A stretch of DNA of 32,000 bases from Nostoc sp. PCC 7120 = FACHB-418 (GTDB lineage Bacteria; Cyanobacteriota; Cyanobacteriia; Cyanobacteriales; Nostocaceae): assembly GCF_000009705.1 (NCBI RefSeq), contig NC_003276.1, positions 270,001 to 302,000 on the forward strand. The letters run 5' to 3'. Under the pieces are notes generated by a model. That model saw only the letters and a program-made list of their open reading frames with translations. It did not search any database and was not told the origin of the DNA. The position numbers and the translations under genes were made by a program. This document shows, piece by piece, positions 12,781-23,587 of this stretch (positions are counted from its first letter, which is position 1; every line of letters begins with the position of its first letter).

Positions 12781-14467
12781 AATCATGAGGTGTGACCCAA
12801 GCAAGGCGATTGATAAACTTATCCTTTTGTGTAGACTTCGGGAAAATACCTAGCGTGGCAAAACTTACTAGAGAAGACGACTCTCTAGATTAGCCAAGTA
12901 AGCCTTGGGGTCTCTGCGAAATCGATACTGTTCAATTCTGGCTTTGTGGTGTTTTTGCAATTGAGAGCGTAATTCGAGCCAAGTATGAATATCAACTTGT
13001 GCTAAATCAGATGCGGTAAAAGAATGAAGCTTAGTAGCTATCGCACAGGCAAGTTTGACAGAACCACGAATAACGAGAGATGAGGGGGCAACCTTACGAC
13101 CGGTACAACGACGTTGATGATAACGTAGCATACCAAAAGCGTGTTCTAAGTCATTATTAGTTCTAGGAAAATCTTCAATTTCATAACAATGAAAAAGTCC
13201 AGACCAGTAGCTGTGGGTGGTTTTTATAAAGTTATCGATTGCAGTGTTCAGGGTACCAGCTTTCTGCTTTTGTTGAGACATTTCTGTCAACAGTTGCTGA
13301 TAACTTTGTTTGACCCCAGCAGCATCAAGACCTATTTTATTGTTGAGAATATTACTAGCTTTATCAACCCACTGATATGCAACCCTCACAGGTGAAAATA
13401 AAGATGCAGTAGCAGATAATCCCTTAGCTAGAAGGTGTTTTAGGTTAACTAAAGGTGGTGGTAAAGCACTTCTTTTTTCCATCCTTTCTAAGCTTTGTTC
13501 TATCAAAGTCAAATTTTCTTGTAACTTTAATCCAGATGCCTCTAACGGTGGATGTCCATCATTGGTTATAGAACTACGGACTGCCGAGCAATAATCTTCA
13601 ATAATAGTCACCAAATCCTTATCTTCATTGGTAACACTACGTTCAATTTCTCGTAATCCTCTAACTTTTTTTTTCAATTCCTTTTTTGCATTTCTATCCG
13701 CCTCATATATGGGTTTAATTGCTTCTTTCAGGTAATGGTAATGACATAAACCATGAGCAATTTTAGGTAATGCTAACCCAACAGCTTTACGAATTGATTG
13801 TTGTCCATCACTAACAACTCCATCAATTGGTACATCCAGTGTATTAGCCACTTCTAATAATAACGCTACTAAATCTTCATTCCTTGATGATAATAAAGTT
13901 TTAGCAAGTAAAATTTCTCCTGATAGACAATCTCGAATTACCCATAATACCTCATGTCCAATTTCTGGCTGCATCCCATCAATGGCTAATATCACCCGTC
14001 CTTGATTAGCCACTATTGCTTTTAATCTTTTATGGTCTTTTAGCCATAAAGAAAGTAACTCGTCATATCTGTCAATTAAGTGTGTGACCGTTCGTTTACT
14101 TATACATATACCCTTTAATTCAAGGTGAGTGTGTATTTGAGGAACACTTCTATGTTCCTGGTAGCGTAATGCTCCTATATAAGCAATCACATCCAAACCA
14201 AATTCGTTCTGTGGTAGAGCGAGTGACCCTTCTTGCTCTGGTCGATATGCTTTTTTATACCGCATACATGACTTATTTTGACATCGCCGAATTTTTAGCT
14301 GTAGTTCTACTACCCCATTTAGCGTTCTTATATGTCGAGGATTATTGTATTCATTCCACATTGCTTGACCACACGAAGGGCATTTTTTTGAACACAATCG
14401 AGTACTTCAAACGATGTTGCCTCTGGTTTTAAACTTTTTCTTACCAAGTTTTTGTACCATTATTTCG
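12781..14467 (-). mobile_element. insertion sequence carrying the 509-aa transposase; ends not resolved
   Basis: The transposase gene sits in the 1.7-kb gap between two tightly packed operon genes (12767 and 14468), so the IS ends must lie within these limits. The interval has no HIP1 site. I found only a weak terminal match (GGCAAAACTTAC near 12857 against the reverse complement of CCAAGTTTTTGTACC near 14443). Confidence 0.4.
12868..14397 (-). CDS. DDE-type transposase with N-terminal zinc ribbon (possibly ISKra4-like; family uncertain)
   Basis: 509 aa. CPSCG...C-x-x-x-x-C at the N-terminus, then LAIDGMQPEIGHEVLWVIRD and VVSDGQQSIRKAV as candidate DDE aspartate blocks. The track start is TTG. 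Confidence 0.7.
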   Translation of the reverse strand: MCSKKCPSCGQAMWNEYNNPRHIRTLNGVVELQLKIRRCQNKSCMRYKKAYRPEQEGSLALPQNEFGLDVIAYIGALRYQEHRSVPQIHTHLELKGICISKRTVTHLIDRYDELLSLWLKDHKRLKAIVANQGRVILAIDGMQPEIGHEVLWVIRDCLSGEILLAKTLLSSRNEDLVALLLEVANTLDVPIDGVVSDGQQSIRKAVGLALPKIAHGLCHYHYLKEAIKPIYEADRNAKKELKKKVRGLREIERSVTNEDKDLVTIIEDYCSAVRSSITNDGHPPLEASGLKLQENLTLIEQSLERMEKRSALPPPLVNLKHLLAKGLSATASLFSPVRVAYQWVDKASNILNNKIGLDAAGVKQSYQQLLTEMSQQKQKAGTLNTAIDNFIKTTHSYWSGLFHCYEIEDFPRTNNDLEHAFGMLRYHQRRCTGRKVAPSSLVIRGSVKLACAIATKLHSFTASDLAQVDIHTWLELRSQLQKHHKARIEQYRFRRDPKAYLANLESRLL

Positions 14468-14944
14468 TTACAAGCTCAAGATTACAGGATCTCTGCTCCT
14501 CTCTAGTAAGTTTTGCCACGCTAGGAAAATACAAACGCCTTCATCAGTTGGTAGTTTGAGCGCTGGGGATTTCCACTCGACCTGAAACAGCCAAGCATTG
14601 TTAATAAGCGACATCCCCAAAATCATGCGAATCTTCGGCCCATCATTAGCGAATCGAAAGTTCACCAACTGACCTAAACGAAAGTGAGGTTTTGAGATGA
14701 CCAGGGGGTAAAGCTGACCCCTAGCGATGATTTCACTATCTGGGACAGAGATGATTCCGCGATCGCTCTCGACAGAATAGTTCCAGCCGTCATCACTCCA
14801 CTCAACGCCGCAGCAGTAACCGGCGACTTTGGAAGAGGGCAAGTAGACTTTTTCGATGAGACTGACGGCAAGAGGTGAGAGTTGCTGACCCCAAGGCGGG
14901 GAAATGTACCAGCACGTTTCCAGGGTATTGAGAGGGTTAGTCAT
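14468..14944 (-). CDS. DUF1392-like protein, paralogue A
   Basis: CWYISPPWG...VYL...GYCCGVEW...FRLGQLV...ILGMSLINNAWLFQVEW is collinear with ORF 26186-26644 (NWYLSPPCD...VYL...GYCCGVEW...FGLGDRV...IVGIQLVNNSWCYAVEM). There is an ATGA overlap with the upstream gene. Confidence 0.55.
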   Translation of the reverse strand: MTNPLNTLETCWYISPPWGQQLSPLAVSLIEKVYLPSSKVAGYCCGVEWSDDGWNYSVESDRGIISVPDSEIIARGQLYPLVISKPHFRLGQLVNFRFANDGPKIRMILGMSLINNAWLFQVEWKSPALKLPTDEGVCIFLAWQNLLERSRDPVILSL

Positions 14945-15657
14945 GATGCCTCCTTTTCAAAAAGTAAACTGCATAGATAGTCAATGCGTTTCCAAGCAAC
15001 GGCGGCCTGTCGCGGAGAGCAACTCAATCCGTAAGCACGACGGGCATCATAGTTACCAGGGATGTTTTTAGCTACTCCAATGGAAATCCGAGAAGCCACC
15101 TTAGAAATTCCGGGTTGATAGCTTCTTGTTTCGAGAGAGAGCCGCACTTCCTCAATGTGATTTCTAATTTGGTTTGTCCAGGGGGTCGGCTGTTGACTGT
15201 TGAATAAGCCATTGGGGTAGGCAATGATGAAGATTCGTTTCCTTTCGTGCGGCAAGCCGACTTGTTGTGCAGAGATACAGTTCCATCCGCCCATGTACCC
15301 GATGCTGTCAAGGTCACAGATGATTTGGTCAAGTCCGCGATAGAGTAAACCTGTGGGGTTCTCGATGAGAGCGATCGCGGGTCTGGGATCAGTGAGTCCT
15401 TGGCGGTTGCCAGAGTTACTTGTACCGGCGCAGGGAAAACCCCCACAGACGATATCGAATTGTCCCCTGTGGCAGTTATAGGTGGTAATGTCTGAGTGAA
15501 TGGGGGTTTGGGGTTGTTCATGACGTAGTTGTGATTGAGAGTAGGGTGAGATTTCGACAAATTGTTTGACCTGGAATTTATGAGACAGACCCGCCGCAGC
15601 GATACCGTGATGGCACAGTCCGCCGATGCCAGAGAATAGGGAGAGGACTGATTTCAT
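14941..15657 (-). CDS. C5 cytosine DNA methyltransferase-like protein, unusually short (238 aa) and motif-divergent
   Basis: Motif I LFSGIGG, DIT, motif IV GGFPCAGTS (Pro-Cys kept, Gln lost), motif VI as IENPTG, motif VIII ERKRIFIIA, and GNY late in the protein. The spacing between motifs IV and VI is about 15 aa shorter than in M.HhaI-type enzymes, and the target-recognition region is minimal. Confidence 0.65.
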   Translation of the reverse strand: MKSVLSLFSGIGGLCHHGIAAAGLSHKFQVKQFVEISPYSQSQLRHEQPQTPIHSDITTYNCHRGQFDIVCGGFPCAGTSNSGNRQGLTDPRPAIALIENPTGLLYRGLDQIICDLDSIGYMGGWNCISAQQVGLPHERKRIFIIAYPNGLFNSQQPTPWTNQIRNHIEEVRLSLETRSYQPGISKVASRISIGVAKNIPGNYDARRAYGLSCSPRQAAVAWKRIDYLCSLLFEKEAS

Positions 15658-16525: not shown

Positions 16526-16849
16526 TCAACAATTGCTGGGTGTTGTCCAACTCGATGTGGGCGATCGCCGTTTGCTTTCAACAAGAAGGGCAACTTGAGA
16601 AATATCTGTGCGGATGCAATGAGGACAGTTGCATATCGCAATACTTGAGCATAGTCGGGTATGTTTTAGCATCCAACTATTGGCAGTAGTCAAAAACTCT
16701 CCAATCACTAATGGCGTACCCCAACGCTTTTCACTTAAACACAGTACCCAAATAACCAAGTGTTCTGGAGTAAAAATATATTGCAGTGGGACTTCATAGC
16801 CATTGGGTTGAAACACTAGGTAATTGCCGTCTAACTTCCAGTAATTCAT
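16526..16849 (-). CDS. hypothetical protein (107 aa)
   Basis: Its ATG shares one base with the dnaB TAA stop (TAATG), which suggests coupling. Confidence 0.45.
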   Translation of the reverse strand: MNYWKLDGNYLVFQPNGYEVPLQYIFTPEHLVIWVLCLSEKRWGTPLVIGEFLTTANSWMLKHTRLCSSIAICNCPHCIRTDISQVALLVESKRRSPTSSWTTPSNC

Positions 16850-18213
16850 TAAAATCCTCGACCACGAGACAAATTCTTGAACTTGGTAAACTGATGATCC
16901 AGCAGAAGCTTTGCAGTACCAGTTGGCCCATTCCTCTGCTTGCGGATGATTAACTCAGCGATGCCACGATCAGGGGTATCAGGGTTATAGATTTCATCGC
17001 GGTAGAGCATGATGACCACATCACTGTCTTGCTCAACTTGTCCACTGGAGCGCAAATCACTGAGTATGGGTCGTTTATCGTTACGGCTCTCAACTTCGCG
17101 GCTTAACTGAGACAAAGCTAATACTGGGACATCCAAATCCTTGGCGATGCGTTTGAGTCCCCGGCTGATTTGGGCCACACGCTCAGTCATATTTACTTTT
17201 GAGTCCACCAGCCCCTCGGCCATCAGTTGCAGGTAATCCACAATGACAAGTCCAACGCCACCATAGGCAGAACTGGCACGGCGGATTTGGCTACGAATAT
17301 CGCCCAGAGTGGGACAAGAATCGTCGTTGATAAAAATGGGTAAATCGCTTAGGTGACAAATCGTTTCACTCAACGGTTGCCACTGGTTATCAGAAAGTCG
17401 TCCACTGTCAAGGAAACTGTTCTCAATGCCAGATTCACTGGAGAGAAAACGCTGCACATATTCGTCAGTAGTCATCTCGACGCTAAAAATCGCAACAAGC
17501 TTGCGGCTGTTTCGGGCGATATGCAGCGCGATATTCCCCGCCAAAGCAGACTTACCAACAGAAGGACGAGCAGCCAGGACGTACAAACGTCCTTTGCGAA
17601 GTCCTCCACCCAGCAAAGTGTCCAAGTCATAAAATCCAGTGGGTAGCGCTGGGGAAACAGTACCCAAGTGACGGGCTTCAATTTCACTGAAGGTATTGGC
17701 CAAAGAATCAGAAATGTGAACTAAATCAGCTTCGGAGTTCTCGGCGGTAATGCCATAAACTTTTTGTTCAGCTTGGTCAAGAACTACAGGTAAATCAGTT
17801 TCAGTTTGATAGCCAAGGTGGACAATTTCATTGCCTGCTTTAATCAGCTGTCGTCGTTGGTATTTCTCCATGACTAAATCGGCTAAGGCATCGATGTTGA
17901 TAGCTGACACAGTGCGGTCTACTAGGGTGGCCAATTTACTGCGCCCACCAATGCGGAATAACAGTCCATGATCTGACAACCAGTTGGTAATCGAAAGCAA
18001 ATCGGTGGGTTTGCCTTGCCCGTAGAGTCTATGCGCGGCTTGGTAAATATCTTTGTGAGCGCCAACGTAAAATGCTTCAGAAATTAAGCGATCGCCTATT
18101 CTACTCATGGCTTCTGGGTCAAGCATGATACCGCCGAGTATTGCTTCTTCAGCTTCAATGCTTTGCGGGGGTAAACGGTCATTACTGGGTGTAAAGTCTA
18201 AATCTTGCGTCAT
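16849..18213 (-). CDS. dnaB: replicative DNA helicase DnaB
   Basis: 454 aa. N-terminal PPQSIEAEEAILGGIM, Walker A ARPSVGKSALAGN, Walker B LVIVDYLQLM, LSQLSREVE and the RNGPTG arginine-finger region. No intein. Confidence 0.92.
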   Translation of the reverse strand: MTQDLDFTPSNDRLPPQSIEAEEAILGGIMLDPEAMSRIGDRLISEAFYVGAHKDIYQAAHRLYGQGKPTDLLSITNWLSDHGLLFRIGGRSKLATLVDRTVSAINIDALADLVMEKYQRRQLIKAGNEIVHLGYQTETDLPVVLDQAEQKVYGITAENSEADLVHISDSLANTFSEIEARHLGTVSPALPTGFYDLDTLLGGGLRKGRLYVLAARPSVGKSALAGNIALHIARNSRKLVAIFSVEMTTDEYVQRFLSSESGIENSFLDSGRLSDNQWQPLSETICHLSDLPIFINDDSCPTLGDIRSQIRRASSAYGGVGLVIVDYLQLMAEGLVDSKVNMTERVAQISRGLKRIAKDLDVPVLALSQLSREVESRNDKRPILSDLRSSGQVEQDSDVVIMLYRDEIYNPDTPDRGIAELIIRKQRNGPTGTAKLLLDHQFTKFKNLSRGRGF

Positions 18214-18300
18214 AGTTTTTCTCTGTAAAAATTTAGGATTCAGGGTGAATGAGCAACAAAGAGGTGGTTGAGAGATTTTTCTTCTGTACCTCGGTTTTTT

Positions 18301-19635
18301 TCAAGCCGCTTGTTGATGTAAATAGGCATACATTTGGGGATGATTTGTTTCTAACCAGCTCAACCAGTTAGTCGTCGCGCCTGTGTGTTGTTGGTCATAT
18401 CGGGTAGTGAATTGTGCGATCGCGCTTTCCCTTCCGACTCGATCTACAAGGTCTAGCAATTCGTTAAACGTGCCTTTGTGCCAGTCAAGGGAGCGAGAGG
18501 AGTAATAGCCAATTGGTTCGTCGTTAGCTTTAGAGTCAGGGTTTGCAGTGTTTTGGGACTCCACAACTTTTGACCAATAGCCCAGCAGTTGCTCCAAACC
18601 GACCTTGCTGTTTTCCCAACTGCCAATGGATTTGATGACCGTGGGAATCTTCATTTGCCAACTGGTCTTGTCCCAATCGGCTCTTTCTTTGGCAATCAAC
18701 TCGACAAGCTGGCGATCGCAAGTCTGATAAACCTTGTCTCTGGTGAGTGTGCGCCAGGGGAAACGCCAAGAACGTAATTTGATTTCGTTTTTGTAGACGG
18801 AGGGTAATGACTCAGATGCCATAATGCCGGGGTCAAGTAAGACCTGGTTAAGTAAATCCTCAACCGACTGAAATTTAATTTGGGGCTGTTTATTCGCTTG
18901 TTCGGCTTTATCGAATGACCCCGCCGGAATGTTTGGTCTGGATGAGGGATTTTCGGTTTGAGGTAAAGACTCGGATTTGTTTAACAACGAAGTGAGAGAT
19001 TTAGGGGTGGGTTGAACTTGGTTTTGTGGTGAAGTTAATTCAGATTTTTCTTCAAACACACATTCCTGGGTGGGGGGTGCGCCGGGTTTAGGGGGCGCTT
19101 TTTCTATGTGTTTTTCTTCTAATTGTTTTTCTTCTAATTGTTTTTTTATATGAGGGGTGGATACTCCAACGTTGGATAGCCCACCGTTGGGTGAGCCACC
19201 GTTGGGTAAGCCACCGTTGGGTGAGCCATCGTCGGACAACCCACCTATGGATAAACCATCTATGGGTGAGCCATCATCGGATGATCGACCTATGGACGAC
19301 TTACTTGTGGATAAGTGATTTTCAAGGAAAAACTGTGTGTCTTCTTTGCTGGTAAAAATATAGTATTGCCAGTCGAACTTACCATTGTTTGGGTTATGTT
19401 CTTGGACTCTAACTAAGTAGTCGTTTTGTTCAGCATTTTTGATAGCACTACGAATTTTGTCTCGTTTGTATCCTAAATACTTTTCAATGACTGAAAAGCT
19501 AATATCAAAGTTTTCATCGTGAGAAGCTACCCAACAAATTAATCTAAATGTTGAATCAGTGAGATTGTAATCGCGTATTAAACTATTAGGAATTGCTGTG
19601 AACTGTTTGGATGGTTTACCATTACGAAATCCCAT
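18301..19635 (-). CDS. putative replication initiator/organiser: N-terminal winged-helix-like domain, repetitive linker, C-terminal domain
   Basis: 444 aa, immediately upstream of dnaB. N-terminus FTAIPNSLIRDYNLTDSTFRLICWVAS...IEKYLGYKRDKIRSAIKNAEQNDYLV resembles phage/plasmid replication-protein wHTH domains. The function is inferred from this and from position only. Confidence 0.45.
   Translation of the reverse strand: MGFRNGKPSKQFTAIPNSLIRDYNLTDSTFRLICWVASHDENFDISFSVIEKYLGYKRDKIRSAIKNAEQNDYLVRVQEHNPNNGKFDWQYYIFTSKEDTQFFLENHLSTSKSSIGRSSDDGSPIDGLSIGGLSDDGSPNGGLPNGGSPNGGLSNVGVSTPHIKKQLEEKQLEEKHIEKAPPKPGAPPTQECVFEEKSELTSPQNQVQPTPKSLTSLLNKSESLPQTENPSSRPNIPAGSFDKAEQANKQPQIKFQSVEDLLNQVLLDPGIMASESLPSVYKNEIKLRSWRFPWRTLTRDKVYQTCDRQLVELIAKERADWDKTSWQMKIPTVIKSIGSWENSKVGLEQLLGYWSKVVESQNTANPDSKANDEPIGYYSSRSLDWHKGTFNELLDLVDRVGRESAIAQFTTRYDQQHTGATTNWLSWLETNHPQMYAYLHQQAA
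19111..19140. repeat. 2 x 15-bp tandem repeat TTTTTCTTCTAATTG
   Basis: Exact copies at 19111-19125 and 19126-19140, encoding QLEEK-QLEEK on the minus strand. Confidence 0.9.
19166..19315. repeat. about ten degenerate 15-bp tandem units (consensus CCACCGTTGGGTGAG)
   Basis: Units are in register at 19166, 19181, 19196, 19211, 19226 and onward. Three are near-identical. On the minus strand they encode the pentapeptide array ...SDDGSPIDGLSIGGLSDDGSPNGGLPNGGSPNGGLSNVG. Confidence 0.85.
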
Positions 19636-19785: not shown

Positions 19786-20411
19786 ATGACTAATAAAACA
19801 CCTAAAACTGAATACGATTCGCCTTGGAAGCAGATGTTGCAACTGTATTTTCAGGACTTCATGCAATTCTTCTTTCCCCAAGCTCATGCTCAAATTGATT
19901 GGAGTCGTGGTTTTGTATTTCTAGATAAAGAATTGCAACAGGTAGTCCGCGATGCCGAGTTAGGAAAACGACTGGTTGACAAATTGGTGAAAATTTATCG
20001 CATTGGGGGTGAAGAATCTTGGTTGTTGATTCATGTTGAAGTTCAAAGCCAAGAAGAAGACGATTTCCCCAAACGGATGTTTGTTTACAACTATCGAATT
20101 TTCGACCGTTATGATCGCTCTGTTGCATCCTTAGCGATATTGGGAGATGACAACATTGAATGGCGACCAAATCAGTTTGGGTACGATTTGTTTGGCTGTA
20201 AGGTTGATTTTCAGTTTCCTGTAATCAAGCTGTTAGACTATTAGCAAAGGTTGTCGGAGCTAGAAGCCAGTCGTAACCCCTTTGCTACGGTCGTAATGGC
20301 TCACTTAGCGGCGGTACAAACCCGCAGTGATAGACTAGAACGTAAGCAGCAGAAGCTAGTTTTAGTTAAAAGACTGTATGAGCAAGGGTCAGGGCGAGAC
20401 GATATCATCAA
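19786..20411 (+). pseudogene. Rpn-family recombination-promoting nuclease / PD-(D/E)XK putative transposase, 5' part (in-frame TAG, then truncated by insertion)
   Basis: DSPWKQMLQLYFQDFMQFFFPQAHAQIDW...FLDKELQQVVRDAELGKRLVDKLVKIYR...LIHVEVQSQEE...RMFVYNYRIFDRY is the family signature. TAG at 20242-20244 interrupts ...VIKLLDY*QRLSELEASRNPFATVVMAHL.... Family-like sequence ends at ...GRDDII. Confidence 0.8.
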
Positions 20412-20452
20412 AAGCTCCCAGGAGACTCCTACTTGCCTAATTTACAAATACC

Positions 20453-21736
20453 CTATATGGCATAAGCGTAACCATCTTTTTTGTGAATAGTTTTACAATA
20501 TTTATGGGAGATACCTTGGATTAATCCTTGTACAGTTGAGATGTTAAAACTACCTGTGGCACGAGTGGCGATCCTACCAATATAAGTCCCAATTTTTTTA
20601 CCTTTAGTAACAACAGCTTTGACAATATCTCCAGTTTGAAATCCAAAATGAAATTTAGTTCTAGAGCAATGTCGAATAGGAAATCCATACTTATCGGTAC
20701 GACATGATTGCCTTGTACCATGACCATTGGCAGTAATTAACAATAGTCTAATACCTTTGATTTTGAGTATTGGTGTTGATGCACCAACGCAACAAGCGTC
20801 GAGCCAGTGAGATTTATTTAATCCCTGTTGGGTTCTGTTAAATTTAGTTAATCCACCAGAACCAATTTCTACTGGTAAGCCAGTAGATTTTAAAACCTCT
20901 AATAATGCAAATCGAGTTGTATTAACTGCTGCTGCATCTGCAAGTGACTTTTTAGTTAATGCCAGAATCTTCTCTAGTCTTGATTTATCTTTTTTAAGAA
21001 AATTCTTGATATCTTGAGTGCCTTTTTTAAGGTTACATTTTTCACAACTGAGTGTAAGATTTGTGATGGAGTTTGACCCACCCTTACTTTTCGGATGTAT
21101 GTGTTCAATTTGAAGCGGGACATCTTTAATCCCGCAATAAGCACATTCTCTATTCCACTTTTCAAGGAAATACTGTCGAGTTTCAAAACCAGCCAAAGTG
21201 CCTTGCTGATACTCTTTACCTTGAATATCTGGGTGGCGAATTAACTGCGTGTCAAACTTTACTAATTCTTGACTAATGGCTGTGATTGGTGCAACTTTCC
21301 TTAACCTATTTACCCAAGTTTTGATATTTTCAACTCGACTTTGCAAGCTTGGTGCTAACCATCCTTGGGGTCTGGTTCTATTGAAAAATCTGGGTTGGCG
21401 ATATCTGGTTTTTCTACTCCTTCTACTCCTACGTAATTGTCTTCTAGAAGTTAACGCATCTCGGATGGCAAATCCCCTGTGCTTTAATTCAGCAGCAAAT
21501 ACAACTTCACCATTAACATCGTTTACCAATGCTATACCTGTGTATTTTGCTCCAGGATCGAACTTTAACCTGAGTGGAGATACAGTAGCATCTGTATATG
21601 ATTCTTTCACAACAATTGTAAAAGGAAAGCGTCTAAAAACTGCTGCTTTTCCTCTCTTTAGTAATTGCCTTGCTTGTGCTGGGTGAATTGGATTTAATGA
21701 TCTTTTTTCGTTATCAATTACAAATACTTTGCACAT
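20453..21736 (-). CDS. iscB: IscB-type RNA-guided nuclease (split RuvC with inserted HNH; RRXRR/PLMP N-terminus)
   Basis: 427 aa. PLMP-like N-terminus VFVIDNEKRSLNPIHPAQARQLLKRGKAAVFRRFPFTIVV. RuvC-I LRLKFDPGAKYTGIALV. Arg-rich bridge helix RRQLRRSRRSRKTRYRQPRF. RuvC-II ISQELVKFD. HNH CAYCG...LQIEHIHPKSKGGSNSITNLTLSCEKCNLKKG. RuvC-III SHWLDACCVG. C-terminal TID-like GFQTGDIVKAVVTKGKKIGTYIGRIATRATGSFNI. GGAGG lies 8 nt upstream of the ATG. Confidence 0.9.
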   Translation of the reverse strand: MCKVFVIDNEKRSLNPIHPAQARQLLKRGKAAVFRRFPFTIVVKESYTDATVSPLRLKFDPGAKYTGIALVNDVNGEVVFAAELKHRGFAIRDALTSRRQLRRSRRSRKTRYRQPRFFNRTRPQGWLAPSLQSRVENIKTWVNRLRKVAPITAISQELVKFDTQLIRHPDIQGKEYQQGTLAGFETRQYFLEKWNRECAYCGIKDVPLQIEHIHPKSKGGSNSITNLTLSCEKCNLKKGTQDIKNFLKKDKSRLEKILALTKKSLADAAAVNTTRFALLEVLKSTGLPVEIGSGGLTKFNRTQQGLNKSHWLDACCVGASTPILKIKGIRLLLITANGHGTRQSCRTDKYGFPIRHCSRTKFHFGFQTGDIVKAVVTKGKKIGTYIGRIATRATGSFNISTVQGLIQGISHKYCKTIHKKDGYAYAI

Positions 21737-21982
21737 GATATGCCTCCAATTGCTTGGGTAATGTTAGCCTAGACAATGATTTAAAGGCTTTTTACGCTAA
21801 CAGCACTGGCTTAACCCATTCAACCTGTTTAACTATTAGCCCTAGTGCTGGGAACTGGCTACGCATTCCCAGGTAAGATGACCTTAAAATCGTAGTGCGC
21901 GAAACACTTAGTCGGGTAAACTCTGGGCTTTGAAAGCCCCCACTATATTGCTTTTAGCAATCCGTGGTGGGTAGTTTACAAA
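21737..21982 (-). ncRNA. candidate omega-RNA scaffold of the IscB element (guide predicted just outside, about 21983-22000)
   Basis: The whole 246-nt gap between the element end and the iscB ATG is non-coding and dense in complementary segments. In plus coordinates: 21916-21922 with 21973-21979; 21939-21943 with 21967-21971; 21948-21951 with 21957-21960; 21925-21931 with 21933-21939; 21801-21809 with 21841-21850; 21848-21854 with 21866-21872. The position and length fit known IscB omega-RNAs. The exact ends are not determinable from sequence. Confidence 0.6.
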
Positions 21983-22313
21983 CTTATTCCGATTTATTGA
22001 TTGGATGATGACCCTACCAGAACAACTAGAGTTAGAATTTTGGCAAGAATACCGAGACTTTGAGGAGTCTAAACTGATGCAATATGTTACTTCGGTTGAA
22101 CGATTTGGTATCCAGAAGGGATTATTAAAAGGCATAGCTTTAGGATTAAAACTCAAATTTGGAACATCTGGACAAAACTTATTACCTGAAATTGAGCAGA
22201 TTGAGGATGTGAATTTACTCGAATCAATCTTGTCAGCAATAGAAACAGCAAATACTGTCGATGAATTGCGTTCTATCTATCAGACAGCAGATGACACTCC
22301 AAGAGGAAATTAG
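21981..22313 (+). pseudogene. Rpn-family nuclease gene, 3' part (DUF4351-like C-terminus) downstream of the insertion
   Basis: The frame reads NLFRFIDWMMTLPEQLELEFWQEYRDFEESKLMQYVTSVERFGIQKGLLKG..., the conserved C-terminal region of the same family. It is in frame with the 5' part once the element is removed. Confidence 0.8.
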
Positions 22314-22356
22314 GGTCTTAATTTGCTGGTAATTTCTTCTTTCAACTAACAATTAG

Positions 22357-22958
22357 TTAGAACTTTCCTCCTACGTGTGGTCGAAATGTTAGGTTAATTC
22401 GCGTGGTGACAAATTTGGTTGTCTTCGGAACCTGATGTACGTGAGTAGTTTGGCAACCGGGAAGCATGACCAACAAACTCCCATGCTCCAACCAAAAATC
22501 AGTAGGCTTACCACCGATAGGCTTTAGCTGAAACTTCCGCGCCGATCCCAAACTGATTGATGCAATCGCCGGCTCAATACCCATAGATGATTCCTTATCC
22601 GCGTGCCACCCTATACTGTCCTGTCCGCTTCTGTATTGGTTGCCGATGACGATGCGGAAGCTATAACCAGTAGCCGCAGTGATTTTGTCTCGCAACTTAG
22701 CCAAAGGTTCTGTCCAAGCTAGGGGTTTAAGCAGTACGCTATTGGAGTAGAGGTAATCACACCCCTCTCCCCATAAATGCACTCCAGGCGGGGAACAGGT
22801 ATCGTTTTACCCAGCATCCTTATCTGGTTTTGTTGCCATTGCAGTTGTTGACAATGCTGATATAACTCGTCCGCCTCTGGCTTACTTAAAAAATCGGGGT
22901 AATAACGGACGGGTAAAACTGCTGTGGTTGGGTCATCGAATAGTAATAACTGTTTCAT
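22357..22958 (-). pseudogene. alkB: alpha-ketoglutarate-dependent dioxygenase AlkB, split by a single frameshift near 22783-22790
   Basis: The upstream ORF (22719-22958) ends ...IPVPRLECIYGERG. The downstream ORF (22357-22782) reads HLWGEGCDYLYSNS...IVIGNQYRSGQDSIGWHADKE...IASISLG...HGSLLVMLPGCQTTHVHQVPK...RINLTFR. Together they make one AlkB (HxD, distal His, RxNLTFR) if one base is restored. Confidence 0.75.
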
Positions 22959-23587
22959 AACAGTACCTTTTCAGCTTTAACTAAAATCTCTTCATCACTT
23001 GCATCAAACAAATCCGCCTGATCGCCCCAACAGTCCCAGCCGTCCCTAGACTCTCGTGCGAATATTTCCAGCTTGGTCATATCTGGACAAAGTTTCTCCA
23101 CCAGTTCAAAAAATTCTGGGGGTTTACGGGAATGCTCACGCCGGGGCGAGTGTAAGATTGTTGATTGGTTCGTGAGCGTTGGCGTTCCGCCCGTCGTAGA
23201 CGTTTGCCCTGCAAAAGCTTTGACATTCCCACGAACAGCCAAAGCACAGTGTTCAGTCGAATTCCGCAACCAATGACCGACACCTAGATGTGTTTTCGTA
23301 CCATCTTTGGTTACTTTCCCCCAAGTGAGAATAGTCTTGAGGTCAAAACCCCACCTCTGCAAGCATTGTGCAGCTTCAATCATGTGGTTATTGGTAAACC
23401 ATAGCCACAGAACACAACCGCCAGCGTCGCATAAGTCGGGAATGGGCAGCGCCAGGATTTCAGGAGTTCGCATTGGCTGATAGGGGATGCGGTTGCGGTG
23501 AGTTTTGTCTTTAGAACGAAGTCTGTAGAACCAGGGCGGGTCGATGATGATGCACTGATACTGTCCTTGTAGAGTGGAAATTCTCAT
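22955..23587 (-). CDS. MT-A70 family N6-adenine DNA methyltransferase
   Basis: Catalytic CIIIDPPWFY (DPPW), followed by LWLWFTN, ILTWGK, HWLRNSTEHCALAVRG and HSRKPPEFFELVEKL, all typical MT-A70 blocks. ATGA overlaps at both ends. Confidence 0.85.
   Translation of the reverse strand: MRISTLQGQYQCIIIDPPWFYRLRSKDKTHRNRIPYQPMRTPEILALPIPDLCDAGGCVLWLWFTNNHMIEAAQCLQRWGFDLKTILTWGKVTKDGTKTHLGVGHWLRNSTEHCALAVRGNVKAFAGQTSTTGGTPTLTNQSTILHSPRREHSRKPPEFFELVEKLCPDMTKLEIFARESRDGWDCWGDQADLFDASDEEILVKAEKVLL

What the first reader, a model, noticed from the sequence alone, without database searches (positions are those of the whole stretch)
21737..22000. Candidate omega-RNA: nested helices fill the whole LE-to-ATG gap, with the guide predicted from flanking host DNA
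On the minus strand the leader starts at the element tip with GTAAACT. This pairs with AGTTTAC 50 nt downstream (plus 21973-21979 with 21916-21922). That helix encloses CCCAC/GTGGG (21967-21971 with 21939-21943), a TTGC-loop-GCAA hairpin (21948-21960) and a GGGCTTT/AAAGCCC hairpin (21925-21939). Further downstream, a 9-bp helix with one bulge (21841-21850 with 21801-21809) and a 7-bp helix (21848-21854 with 21866-21872) follow. The iscB Shine-Dalgarno GGAGG lies at the 3' end. In known IscB systems the guide is the 5' extension just outside the transposon end. Here that predicts a guide of roughly 5'-AAUAAAUCGGAAUAAG(UU)-3', the reverse complement of about 21983-21998, which is sequence from the interrupted Rpn-like gene. 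In an empty site this target would be followed on the minus strand by (TT)GATGATATCGTC, so the TAM would be read from there.
Basis: partly seen in the sequence, partly recalled or inferred. Interest (0 to 1): 0.85.

Follow-up and report, generated by a model that had tools for sequence, protein, structure and literature searches.

The report
Ordinary IscB guide RNA (HEARO/ωRNA)

Summary
Window 21758-21979 (minus strand) matches Rfam RF02033 (HEARO, the IscB ωRNA) over the model's full length, at 149.4 bits against a gathering score of 83. The ORF just downstream (20453-21736, minus) is an IscB with all five catalytic residues.

A covariance model found the same RNA directly upstream of iscB in 76 related cyanobacterial loci. 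In that alignment 90% of pair cells are paired (67.5% in shuffles), and 62 of 73 pairs show compensatory changes.

The CCCAC/GTGGG helix is three bases out of register. The 9-bp helix has no support.

An uninterrupted copy of the host gene in a metagenome fixes the element at exactly 20409-21979 (1571 bp, no target duplication). This refines two predictions:
- The guide is 5'-AAAUCGGAAUAAGUUU-3' (21995-21980).
- The TAM is ATGA (20408-20405). The same motif flanks 58 of 68 related elements and shares its core with the published GstIscB TAM.

By the published convention the ωRNA abuts the transposon right end, not the left end. This copy's other end has lost its hairpins, so it may no longer move.

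Verdict: real, already known, low interest.

The parts
20409..21979 (-). Complete IscB insertion element (1571 bp, IS200/IS605 type, no target-site duplication, no tnpA).
   Evidence: The empty site in L084 reads GACGATATCAT|AAACTTATTCCG, so both junctions are unambiguous. Relatives lose similarity at the same ends.
21980..21995 (-). Predicted 16-nt guide, 5'-AAAUCGGAAUAAGUUU-3'. It is host DNA immediately 5' of the ωRNA scaffold.
   Evidence: In 73 of 74 loci the scaffold starts GT(A/C)A right after unrelated flank sequence. The 16-17-nt guide length comes from Kato et al.. Transcription of this stretch was not shown.
21758..21979 (-). ωRNA scaffold, equal to the Rfam RF02033 HEARO match.
   Evidence: 149.4 bits against a gathering score of 83, model positions 1-211 of 211. 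Own model R1 scores 269.7 bits. Covariation.
21916..21979 (-). 5' domain. P1 is 21973-79/21916-22. It encloses the hairpin 21964-67/21940-43 plus 21957-61/21947-51, and the hairpin 21934-39/21925-30.
   Evidence: Helices 1-3 are 92-96% paired and 22 of their 24 pairs show compensatory change. P1 was recovered independently by MAFFT + RNAalifold.
21772..21913 (-). Central domain. Multiloop stem 21909-13/21772-76; hairpin 21904-08/21894-98; long-range helix 21881-91/21778-88; hairpin 21865-76/21842-55; long hairpin 21819-40/21796-14.
   Evidence: Rfam consensus mapping; covariation in helices 4-12; the same helices recovered without a structure prior.
21746..21757 (-). Terminal GNRA hairpin (CCAA-GCAA-UUGG). 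It lies beyond the Rfam model and overlaps the Shine-Dalgarno sequence.
   Evidence: A 2-4-bp GNRA hairpin sits at this place in 66 of 76 loci, with varied stems such as CC/GG, CCA/UGG, CCUA/UAGG and CAC/GUG. Meers et al. note that RF02033 lacks downstream elements.
21743..21747 (-). Shine-Dalgarno GGAGG of iscB, 6 nt before the ATG at 21736.
   Evidence: Read directly from the sequence.
20453..21736 (-). iscB, 427 aa, with the catalytic residues intact.
   Evidence: Pfam RRXRR 240 bits plus HNH. NCBIfam NF040563 guided_IscB 448.5 bits against a cut-off of 175. D60, E157, H212, H310 and D313 align to OgeuIscB D61, E193, H247, H340 and D343.
20409..20452 (-). Short left-end (LE) remnant downstream of iscB. 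It ends ...GGAGTCTCCTGGGAGCTTTTG.
   Evidence: The terminal ~25 nt resemble the tails of related elements. No hairpin forms (DNA MFE -1.4 kcal/mol, z 0.16), whereas the 136-nt tail in T. variabilis has two strong hairpins (-40.6 kcal/mol, z -10.3).
20405..20408 (-). Predicted TAM ATGA (TCAT on the + strand). It is flanking DNA that would follow the target in the empty site.
   Evidence: [AG]TGA sits exactly where tail similarity stops in 58 of 68 loci, against a background of 13.6%. The GstIscB TAM is TTCAT on the top strand, which is ATGAA in iscB sense.
19786..20408 (+). 5' part of the interrupted host gene, with an extra in-frame TAG at 20242-20244.
   Evidence: It aligns to the intact 323-aa ORF of L084, which has CAG at that codon.
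21980..22313 (+). 3' part of the interrupted host gene (...NLFRFIDWMMTLPEQ...).
   Evidence: It continues the L084 ORF in frame across the junction as DDII|NLFRFIDW.

Best explanation
Window 20409-21979 is a non-autonomous insertion element of the IS200/IS605 type. It encodes IscB and, upstream on the same (minus) strand, its ωRNA (Rfam HEARO).

Proposed mechanism:
1. A transcript enters from the flanking DNA. It carries about 16 nt of host sequence (AAAUCGGAAUAAGUUU, 21995-21980) fused to the 222-243-nt scaffold that starts at G21979.
2. IscB binds the scaffold and uses the 5' extension as a guide.
3. If a TnpA transposase excises the element, the rejoined site reads AAATCGGAATAAGTTT|ATGA. 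That is the guide's target followed by the TAM.
4. IscB cuts that site, and recombination with a copy that still holds the element restores it. [quoted passage not shown]
5. The occupied site is not cut, because GTAA follows the target there instead of ATGA.

Shown here: the identity of the RNA and of the protein, the structure through covariation, the exact element ends, the empty site, and the family-wide ATGA flank.

Inferred, not shown: transcription of the guide, RNA processing, cleavage activity and the TAM requirement of this particular protein.
For: - The Rfam HEARO match is full length at 149.4 bits, E = 1e-31.
- IscB is an NCBIfam equivalog at 448.5 bits, has RRXRR and HNH domains and has five conserved catalytic residues.
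- Model R1 finds the RNA directly upstream of iscB in 76 loci.
- On that alignment 90.1% of cells are paired against 67.5% in shuffles and 33-44% in slid controls, and 62 of 73 pairs carry compensatory changes.
- A structure-blind MAFFT + RNAalifold run recovers the same helices, with 26 of 44 pairs compensatory.
- Similarity to independent insertions starts exactly at 21979.
- The empty site in L084 restores an intact 323-aa ORF.
- ATGA or GTGA flanks 58 of 68 related elements.
- Meers et al. identify HEARO as the IscB ωRNA bounded by the RE, give the GstIscB TAM as TTCAT, and show cleavage of donor joints.
- Kato et al. report a 5' guide of about 16-17 nt.
- The occupied site has no TAM after the target.
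Against: - There are no transcript data.
- No sigma-70-like promoter lies on the minus strand between 22500 and 21980. The guide would therefore need read-through from the minus-strand genes that end at 22357.
- The element is antisense to the gene it interrupts.
- The single-sequence fold is not significantly more stable than shuffles (z = -1.83).
- The left end lacks the hairpins seen in close relatives, and no tnpA was seen among the proteins scanned or the genes called within 3 kb. Excision, and hence the homing role, may no longer apply to this copy.
Confidence: 0.93

Rival explanations
1. This is a stranded or decaying copy. The RNA and gene are of the HEARO/IscB kind, but the element can no longer be excised because its left end is truncated. 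The ωRNA-IscB pair then has no transposon-maintenance role here. It is either a recent fossil or a fixed-guide nuclease.
For: - The 44-nt tail has no hairpin (MFE -1.4 kcal/mol, z 0.16). The 86%-identical T. variabilis copy has a 136-nt tail with two strong hairpins (-40.6 kcal/mol, z -10.3).
- Close relatives lose similarity at 20439, inside the tail.
- No tnpA was seen nearby.
- The host gene has gained a further stop codon, so the insertion is not brand new.
Against: - iscB is intact with all catalytic residues, and the ωRNA scores as well as any relative.
- The terminal ~25 nt and the ATGA flank are kept.
- L020 carries an independent short-tail variant, so a short left end might suffice.
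- The minimal left end that TnpA needs in this family is unknown.
Confidence: 0.4
2. The region is mainly a cis-acting 5' leader that controls iscB translation, not a trans-acting guide RNA.
For: - The structured region fills the whole gap up to the start codon.
- The terminal GNRA hairpin overlaps the first two G of the Shine-Dalgarno sequence.
Against: - The same RNA family has been shown by experiment and by cryo-EM to be the guide RNA bound by IscB.
- The scaffold's 5' end coincides with the transposon end in 73 of 74 loci. A guide explains this; a leader does not.
- A cis effect could still exist alongside the guide role.
Confidence: 0.03
3. The helices are chance complementarity in an ordinary intergenic region.
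Against: - Rfam E-value of 1e-31.
- 62 of 73 pairs carry compensatory changes.
- 0 of 500 shuffles reach the observed values.
Confidence: 0.01

Closest known systems
HEARO RNA (Rfam RF02033), the IscB ωRNA of the OMEGA system
   Same: - Full-length match above the gathering score.
- Sits directly upstream of iscB on the same strand.
- The 5' end lies at the transposon end.
- Same multi-helix architecture, supported by covariation.
   Different: Nothing essential. There are two lineage details. The hairpin 21947-21961 is a longer version of a short consensus hairpin. A terminal GNRA hairpin (21746-21757) lies outside the Rfam model, and Meers et al. already noted that the model lacks downstream elements.
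GstIscB element (ISGst family) of Geobacillus stearothermophilus, Meers et al.
   Same: - A non-autonomous IS200/IS605-type element with iscB only.
- The ωRNA is bounded by the RE, and the guide comes from the RE flank.
- The TAM core TCAT lies 5' of the LE (TTCAT in Gst, ATCAT here).
- The donor joint equals target plus TAM.
   Different: - Cyanobacterial host.
- No experimental data for this copy.
- This copy's LE is truncated.
OgeuIscB-ωRNA complex (PDB 7XHT, 7UTN)
   Same: - The protein aligns over the PLMP, RuvC and HNH regions with all catalytic residues conserved.
- 5' guide and a large structured scaffold.
   Different: - Distant protein (E = 3e-26; 427 aa against 496 aa).
- Different TAM (NWRRNA/NNRR against the ATGA predicted here).
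- The Ogeu nexus pseudoknot (loop CCCC with downstream GGGG) has no demonstrated counterpart here. A candidate loop pairing was only weakly supported.
TnpB ωRNA/reRNA of IS605 elements
   Same: The same logic applies: a transposon-end RNA whose guide is flanking DNA, and a TAM that equals the TnpA target motif. One such element is nested in this very locus in a sister assembly.
   Different: The TnpB RNA lies at the 3' end of the gene with a 3' guide and a 5' TAM. The protein has only a RuvC nuclease domain.

Membership tests
HEARO / IscB ωRNA (Rfam RF02033) | Covariance-model score at or above the curated gathering score, over the full model. | tested here: met
   149.4 bits against 83, model positions 1-211 of 211, E = 1.1e-31.
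HEARO / IscB ωRNA (Rfam RF02033) | Located directly upstream of an IscB (HNH/RuvC) ORF, on the same strand. | tested here: met
   The RNA is 21758-21979 (-) and iscB is 20453-21736 (-). The same arrangement holds in 76 related loci.
HEARO / IscB ωRNA (Rfam RF02033) | Consensus helices maintained by compensatory changes in relatives. | tested here: met
   90.1% of cells paired, 62 of 73 pairs compensatory, 0 of 500 shuffles as high. Confirmed without a structure prior.
HEARO / IscB ωRNA (Rfam RF02033) | The 5' end of the scaffold coincides with the transposon end, and the guide is variable flank sequence. | tested here: met
   Similarity starts at G21979, and the flanks are unrelated in 73 of 74 loci. 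The empty site confirms the boundary.
HEARO / IscB ωRNA (Rfam RF02033) | Expressed as an RNA that carries the guide and is bound by IscB. | not testable with these tools
   No transcriptome or biochemical data. No promoter-like site upstream on the minus strand.
IscB (OMEGA RNA-guided nuclease) | PLMP/RRXRR N-terminus, split RuvC with inserted HNH, and catalytic residues present. | tested here: met
   PF14239 240 bits plus PF01844. NF040563 448.5 bits against a cut-off of 175. D60, E157, H212, H310 and D313 align to the OgeuIscB catalytic residues.
IscB (OMEGA RNA-guided nuclease) | RNA-guided, TAM-dependent cleavage of double-stranded DNA. | not testable with these tools
   Needs an interference or in-vitro cleavage assay.
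IS200/IS605-type element | Insertion without target-site duplication or terminal inverted repeats, 3' of a short conserved motif. | tested here: met
   Empty site GATATCAT|AAACTT compared with the occupied site gives exact junctions and no duplication. TCAT (ATGA in iscB sense) flanks 58 of 68 relatives.
IS200/IS605-type element | Subterminal hairpins at both ends for TnpA recognition. | tested here: not met
   The RE side is structured (the ωRNA 5' domain). The 44-nt LE tail has no hairpin (z 0.16), unlike the T. variabilis relative (z -10.3). This concerns the mobility of this copy, not the identity of the RNA.
IS200/IS605-type element | Y1 (HUH) TnpA transposase, in cis or in trans. | tested here: inconclusive
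   No Y1_Tnp domain among the called genes within 3 kb or in the 14 window ORFs scanned. The rest of the genome is not available. Only about 1.5% of iscB genes have tnpA nearby.

The most novel reading that the evidence does not exclude
The left end has lost its hairpins, so this copy may be a stranded IscB-ωRNA with a fixed guide. Its target (AAATCGGAATAAGTTT+ATGA) encodes the ...IINLFR... segment of a cyanobacterial gene that also exists in uninterrupted form (L084). The nuclease could then act against intact alleles or paralogues of that gene, in a drive-like or plasmid-competition role, rather than serve transposon retention.
Probability: 0.08. Interest if true: 0.45.

Novelty: already known. 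Interest (0 to 1): 0.12.

Why it matters
It matters little beyond annotation. The locus can be labelled with confidence as an IscB element with exact ends, an ωRNA, a predicted 16-nt guide and a predicted ATGA TAM.

Two uses remain:
- The 76-locus cyanobacterial alignment and the natural empty site give a clean, ready-made test case for the donor-joint homing model in cyanobacteria.
- It offers a compact (427-aa) IscB with a simple predicted TAM to anyone screening orthologues.

It does not open a new question.

Tried and rejected
Tested on the 76-locus alignment and no better than shuffles. Rejected.
Weaker than the register shifted by three bases.
- **'Pseudoknot' reading of the Rfam [ ] helix.** I first took it for a pseudoknot. 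It is a nested stem that closes a multiloop.
- **Tertiary pairing of 5' ACCCA (21968-21972) with the UGGGU loop of the long hairpin.** A few compensatory cases exist (L052/L040, L056). About a dozen ACUCA-type loci do not fit. The permutation excess is small (mean 4.39 against 4.22, sd 0.06). Left open. The 3' UUACCC tail, which would parallel the Ogeu nexus pseudoknot, stays invariant where the loop changes, so it is not supported either.
- **Single-sequence folding.** Not significant.
- **Promoter and terminator scan.** Nothing on the minus strand upstream of the guide.
- **Rfam in E-value mode.** No second family in 21400-22400.
- **Host gene identity.** No Pfam hit, and only a sub-threshold NCBIfam Rpn hit. 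'Rpn-like' is unproven.
- **Other copies of the target plus TAM.** None in the window.
- **Searches not run.** The large protein-database searches and structure prediction, because the answer did not depend on them.

Full report
**What is there**

On the minus strand, window 21758-21979 matches Rfam RF02033. [quoted passage not shown] The match covers the whole model (positions 1-211 of 211) at 149.4 bits, against a gathering score of 83 (E = 1.1e-31). It is the only Rfam hit in the 32-kb window.

The ORF directly downstream (20453-21736, minus strand, 427 aa) is an IscB:
- It has Pfam RRXRR (240 bits) and HNH domains.
- It matches the NCBIfam equivalog NF040563, 'RNA-guided endonuclease IscB', at 448.5 bits against a cut-off of 175.
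- Its residues D60, E157, H212, H310 and D313 align with the OgeuIscB catalytic residues D61, E193, H247, H340 and D343.

Meers et al. [quoted passage not shown]

I mapped each proposed helix onto the sequence and onto the Rfam consensus.

Four helices are correct:
- GTAAACT/AGTTTAC (21973-79 with 21916-22).
- The TTGC/GCAA hairpin.
- The GGGCTT/AAGCCC hairpin.
- The 7-bp helix 21848-54 with 21866-72.

Two are not:
- CCCAC/GTGGG is three bases out of register. Relatives extend CCAC/GTGG (21964-67 with 21940-43) into CCACCA/TGGTGG or CCACTG/CAGTGG. That helix is 95% paired and every pair covaries.
- The 9-bp helix 21841-50 with 21801-09 overlaps the 7-bp helix. It is 62.1% paired, against 62.0% in shuffles, so it is not supported.

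- The multiloop-closing stem 21909-13/21772-76.
- The hairpin 21904-08/21894-98.
- The 11-bp long-range helix 21881-91/21778-88.
- The long hairpin 21819-40/21796-14.
- A terminal GNRA hairpin, CCAA-GCAA-UUGG (21746-21757). It overlaps the Shine-Dalgarno sequence and lies outside the Rfam model. A hairpin of this kind sits at the same place in 66 of 76 relatives, with varied stems.

The single-sequence fold is not significantly stable (z = -1.83).

**Covariation**

A protein-seeded scan of one genome per species returned 80 cyanobacterial loci with IscB relatives at 58-89% identity. I built a covariance model from the window plus seven of these loci. It found the RNA directly upstream of iscB in 76 loci.

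On that alignment:
- 90.1% of pair cells form standard pairs, against 67.5% in column shuffles and 33-44% when partners are slid by 1-3 columns.
- 62 of 73 pairs carry changes on both sides.
- 0 of 500 shuffles reach any of the observed measures.

That alignment was fitted to the structure. I therefore repeated the test on 30 sequences with MAFFT and RNAalifold, without any structure prior. That run recovers P1, the multiloop stem, the long-range helix and the three central hairpins. 26 of its 44 pairs are compensatory.

**Ends of the element, guide and TAM**

Similarity to independent insertions begins exactly at G21979. In 73 of 74 loci the scaffold starts GT(A/C)A, preceded by unrelated sequence.

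A gapped pattern search of metagenome contigs found an uninterrupted homologue of the host gene, L084. It reads ...GACGATATCAT|AAACTTATTCCG... inside an intact 323-aa ORF (...GRDDIINLFRFIDWMM...). Comparison with the window fixes the element at 20409-21979. It is 1571 bp, both junctions are unambiguous, and there is no target duplication.

In iscB sense the locus reads:

5'-AAATCGGAATAAGTTT|GTAAACT...GGGAGCTTTTG|ATGATATCG-3'

- The 16-nt guide is AAAUCGGAAUAAGUUU (21995-21980).
- The sequence that follows the target in the empty site is ATGATATCG.

Across the family, tail similarity stops at [AG]TGA in 58 of 68 loci, against 13.6% of random 18-nt windows. ATGA is therefore the likely TAM. On the transposase's top strand this is TCAT, placed 5' of the left end. 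That is the same core as the experimentally defined GstIscB TAM, TTCAT. In the occupied site the target is followed by GTAA, not ATGA, so the element would not target itself.

**Mechanism**

The evidence fits the published model:
1. The ωRNA guide is the right-end flank.
2. After TnpA excises the element, the donor joint places that flank next to the TAM.
3. IscB cuts the joint, and recombination restores the element.

The identities, the structure, the ends, the empty site and the flank motif are shown here. Transcription of the guide, IscB binding and cleavage are inferred.

No promoter-like or terminator-like site lies on the minus strand between 22500 and 21980. The element is antisense to the gene it interrupts. 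The guide would therefore have to be transcribed by read-through from the minus-strand genes that end at 22357. This is inference.

**State of this copy**

The closest relatives include one on Trichormus variabilis ATCC 29413 plasmid A, at 86% identity, whose gene is annotated as iscB. They share sequence with the window only down to 20439.

- The T. variabilis tail is 136 nt and folds into two strong hairpins (-40.6 kcal/mol, z = -10.3).
- The window's tail is 44 nt and has no hairpin (-1.4 kcal/mol, z = 0.16).

So this copy seems to have lost most of its left end while keeping the last ~25 nt. L020 carries an independent short-tail variant.

No Y1 transposase was seen among the genes within 3 kb or among the 14 window ORFs scanned. 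This copy may therefore be immobile, although its ωRNA and iscB are intact.

**Comparison with known systems, and verdict**

Every testable defining feature of HEARO/ωRNA and of IscB is met. For the IS200/IS605 type, insertion without duplication next to a conserved motif is met. The left-end hairpin is not met in this copy, and the transposase could not be assessed.

This is an ordinary member of a well-described system, and relatives are already annotated as IscB in RefSeq. Novelty: already known. Interest: low.

Noticed in passing
L081 4292-5650 (equivalent to window 20445/20446): In a sister assembly (CP183474.1) the same locus carries a 1359-bp TnpB-only IS605-type element nested in the tail of the IscB element. 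It is inserted after + strand ...AATTTAC. It has CCCCCG...CGGGGG hairpins at both ends, and its right end finishes ...GATGTCAA. This implies recent TnpA activity in that lineage.
   Followed up: partly
window 20409-20452, compared with L085 3030-3165: The left-end tail of this IscB element is only 44 nt and has no hairpin. The 86%-identical T. variabilis plasmid A copy has a 136-nt tail with two strong hairpins. This copy looks internally deleted and may be immobile. L020 has an independent short-tail variant.
   Followed up: partly
window 20242-20244: The interrupted host gene also carries an in-frame TAG where the intact homologue L084 has CAG. The gene has therefore kept decaying since the insertion.
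   Followed up: yes
window 19786-20408 and 21980-22313; L084 101-1072: The host gene has no Pfam hit, and only a sub-threshold match to the Rpn family (TIGR01784, E = 0.016, 15 bits against a cut-off of 52). The 'Rpn-like' label is unproven.
   Followed up: partly
window 21968-21972 and about 21813-21817: The conserved 5' ACCCA could pair with the UGGGU loop of the long hairpin. A few lineages change both sides together (ACUCA/UGAGU, GCUAA/UUAGC), but about a dozen do not, and the permutation excess is small.
   Followed up: partly
window 21746-21757: A terminal GNRA tetraloop hairpin overlaps the first two G of the iscB Shine-Dalgarno sequence. It is conserved in 66 of 76 loci with varied stems and lies outside the Rfam HEARO model.
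   Followed up: yes
window 12868-14397, 14941-15657, 16849-19635, 22357-23587: The surroundings look like plasmid or mobile DNA: an IS66/MULE-like transposase, a C-5 cytosine methylase, a DnaB helicase, an HTH_36 protein, an MT-A70 methyltransferase and a 2OG-Fe(II) oxygenase. The identical locus lies on a 407-kb replicon (CP183474.1).
   Followed up: no
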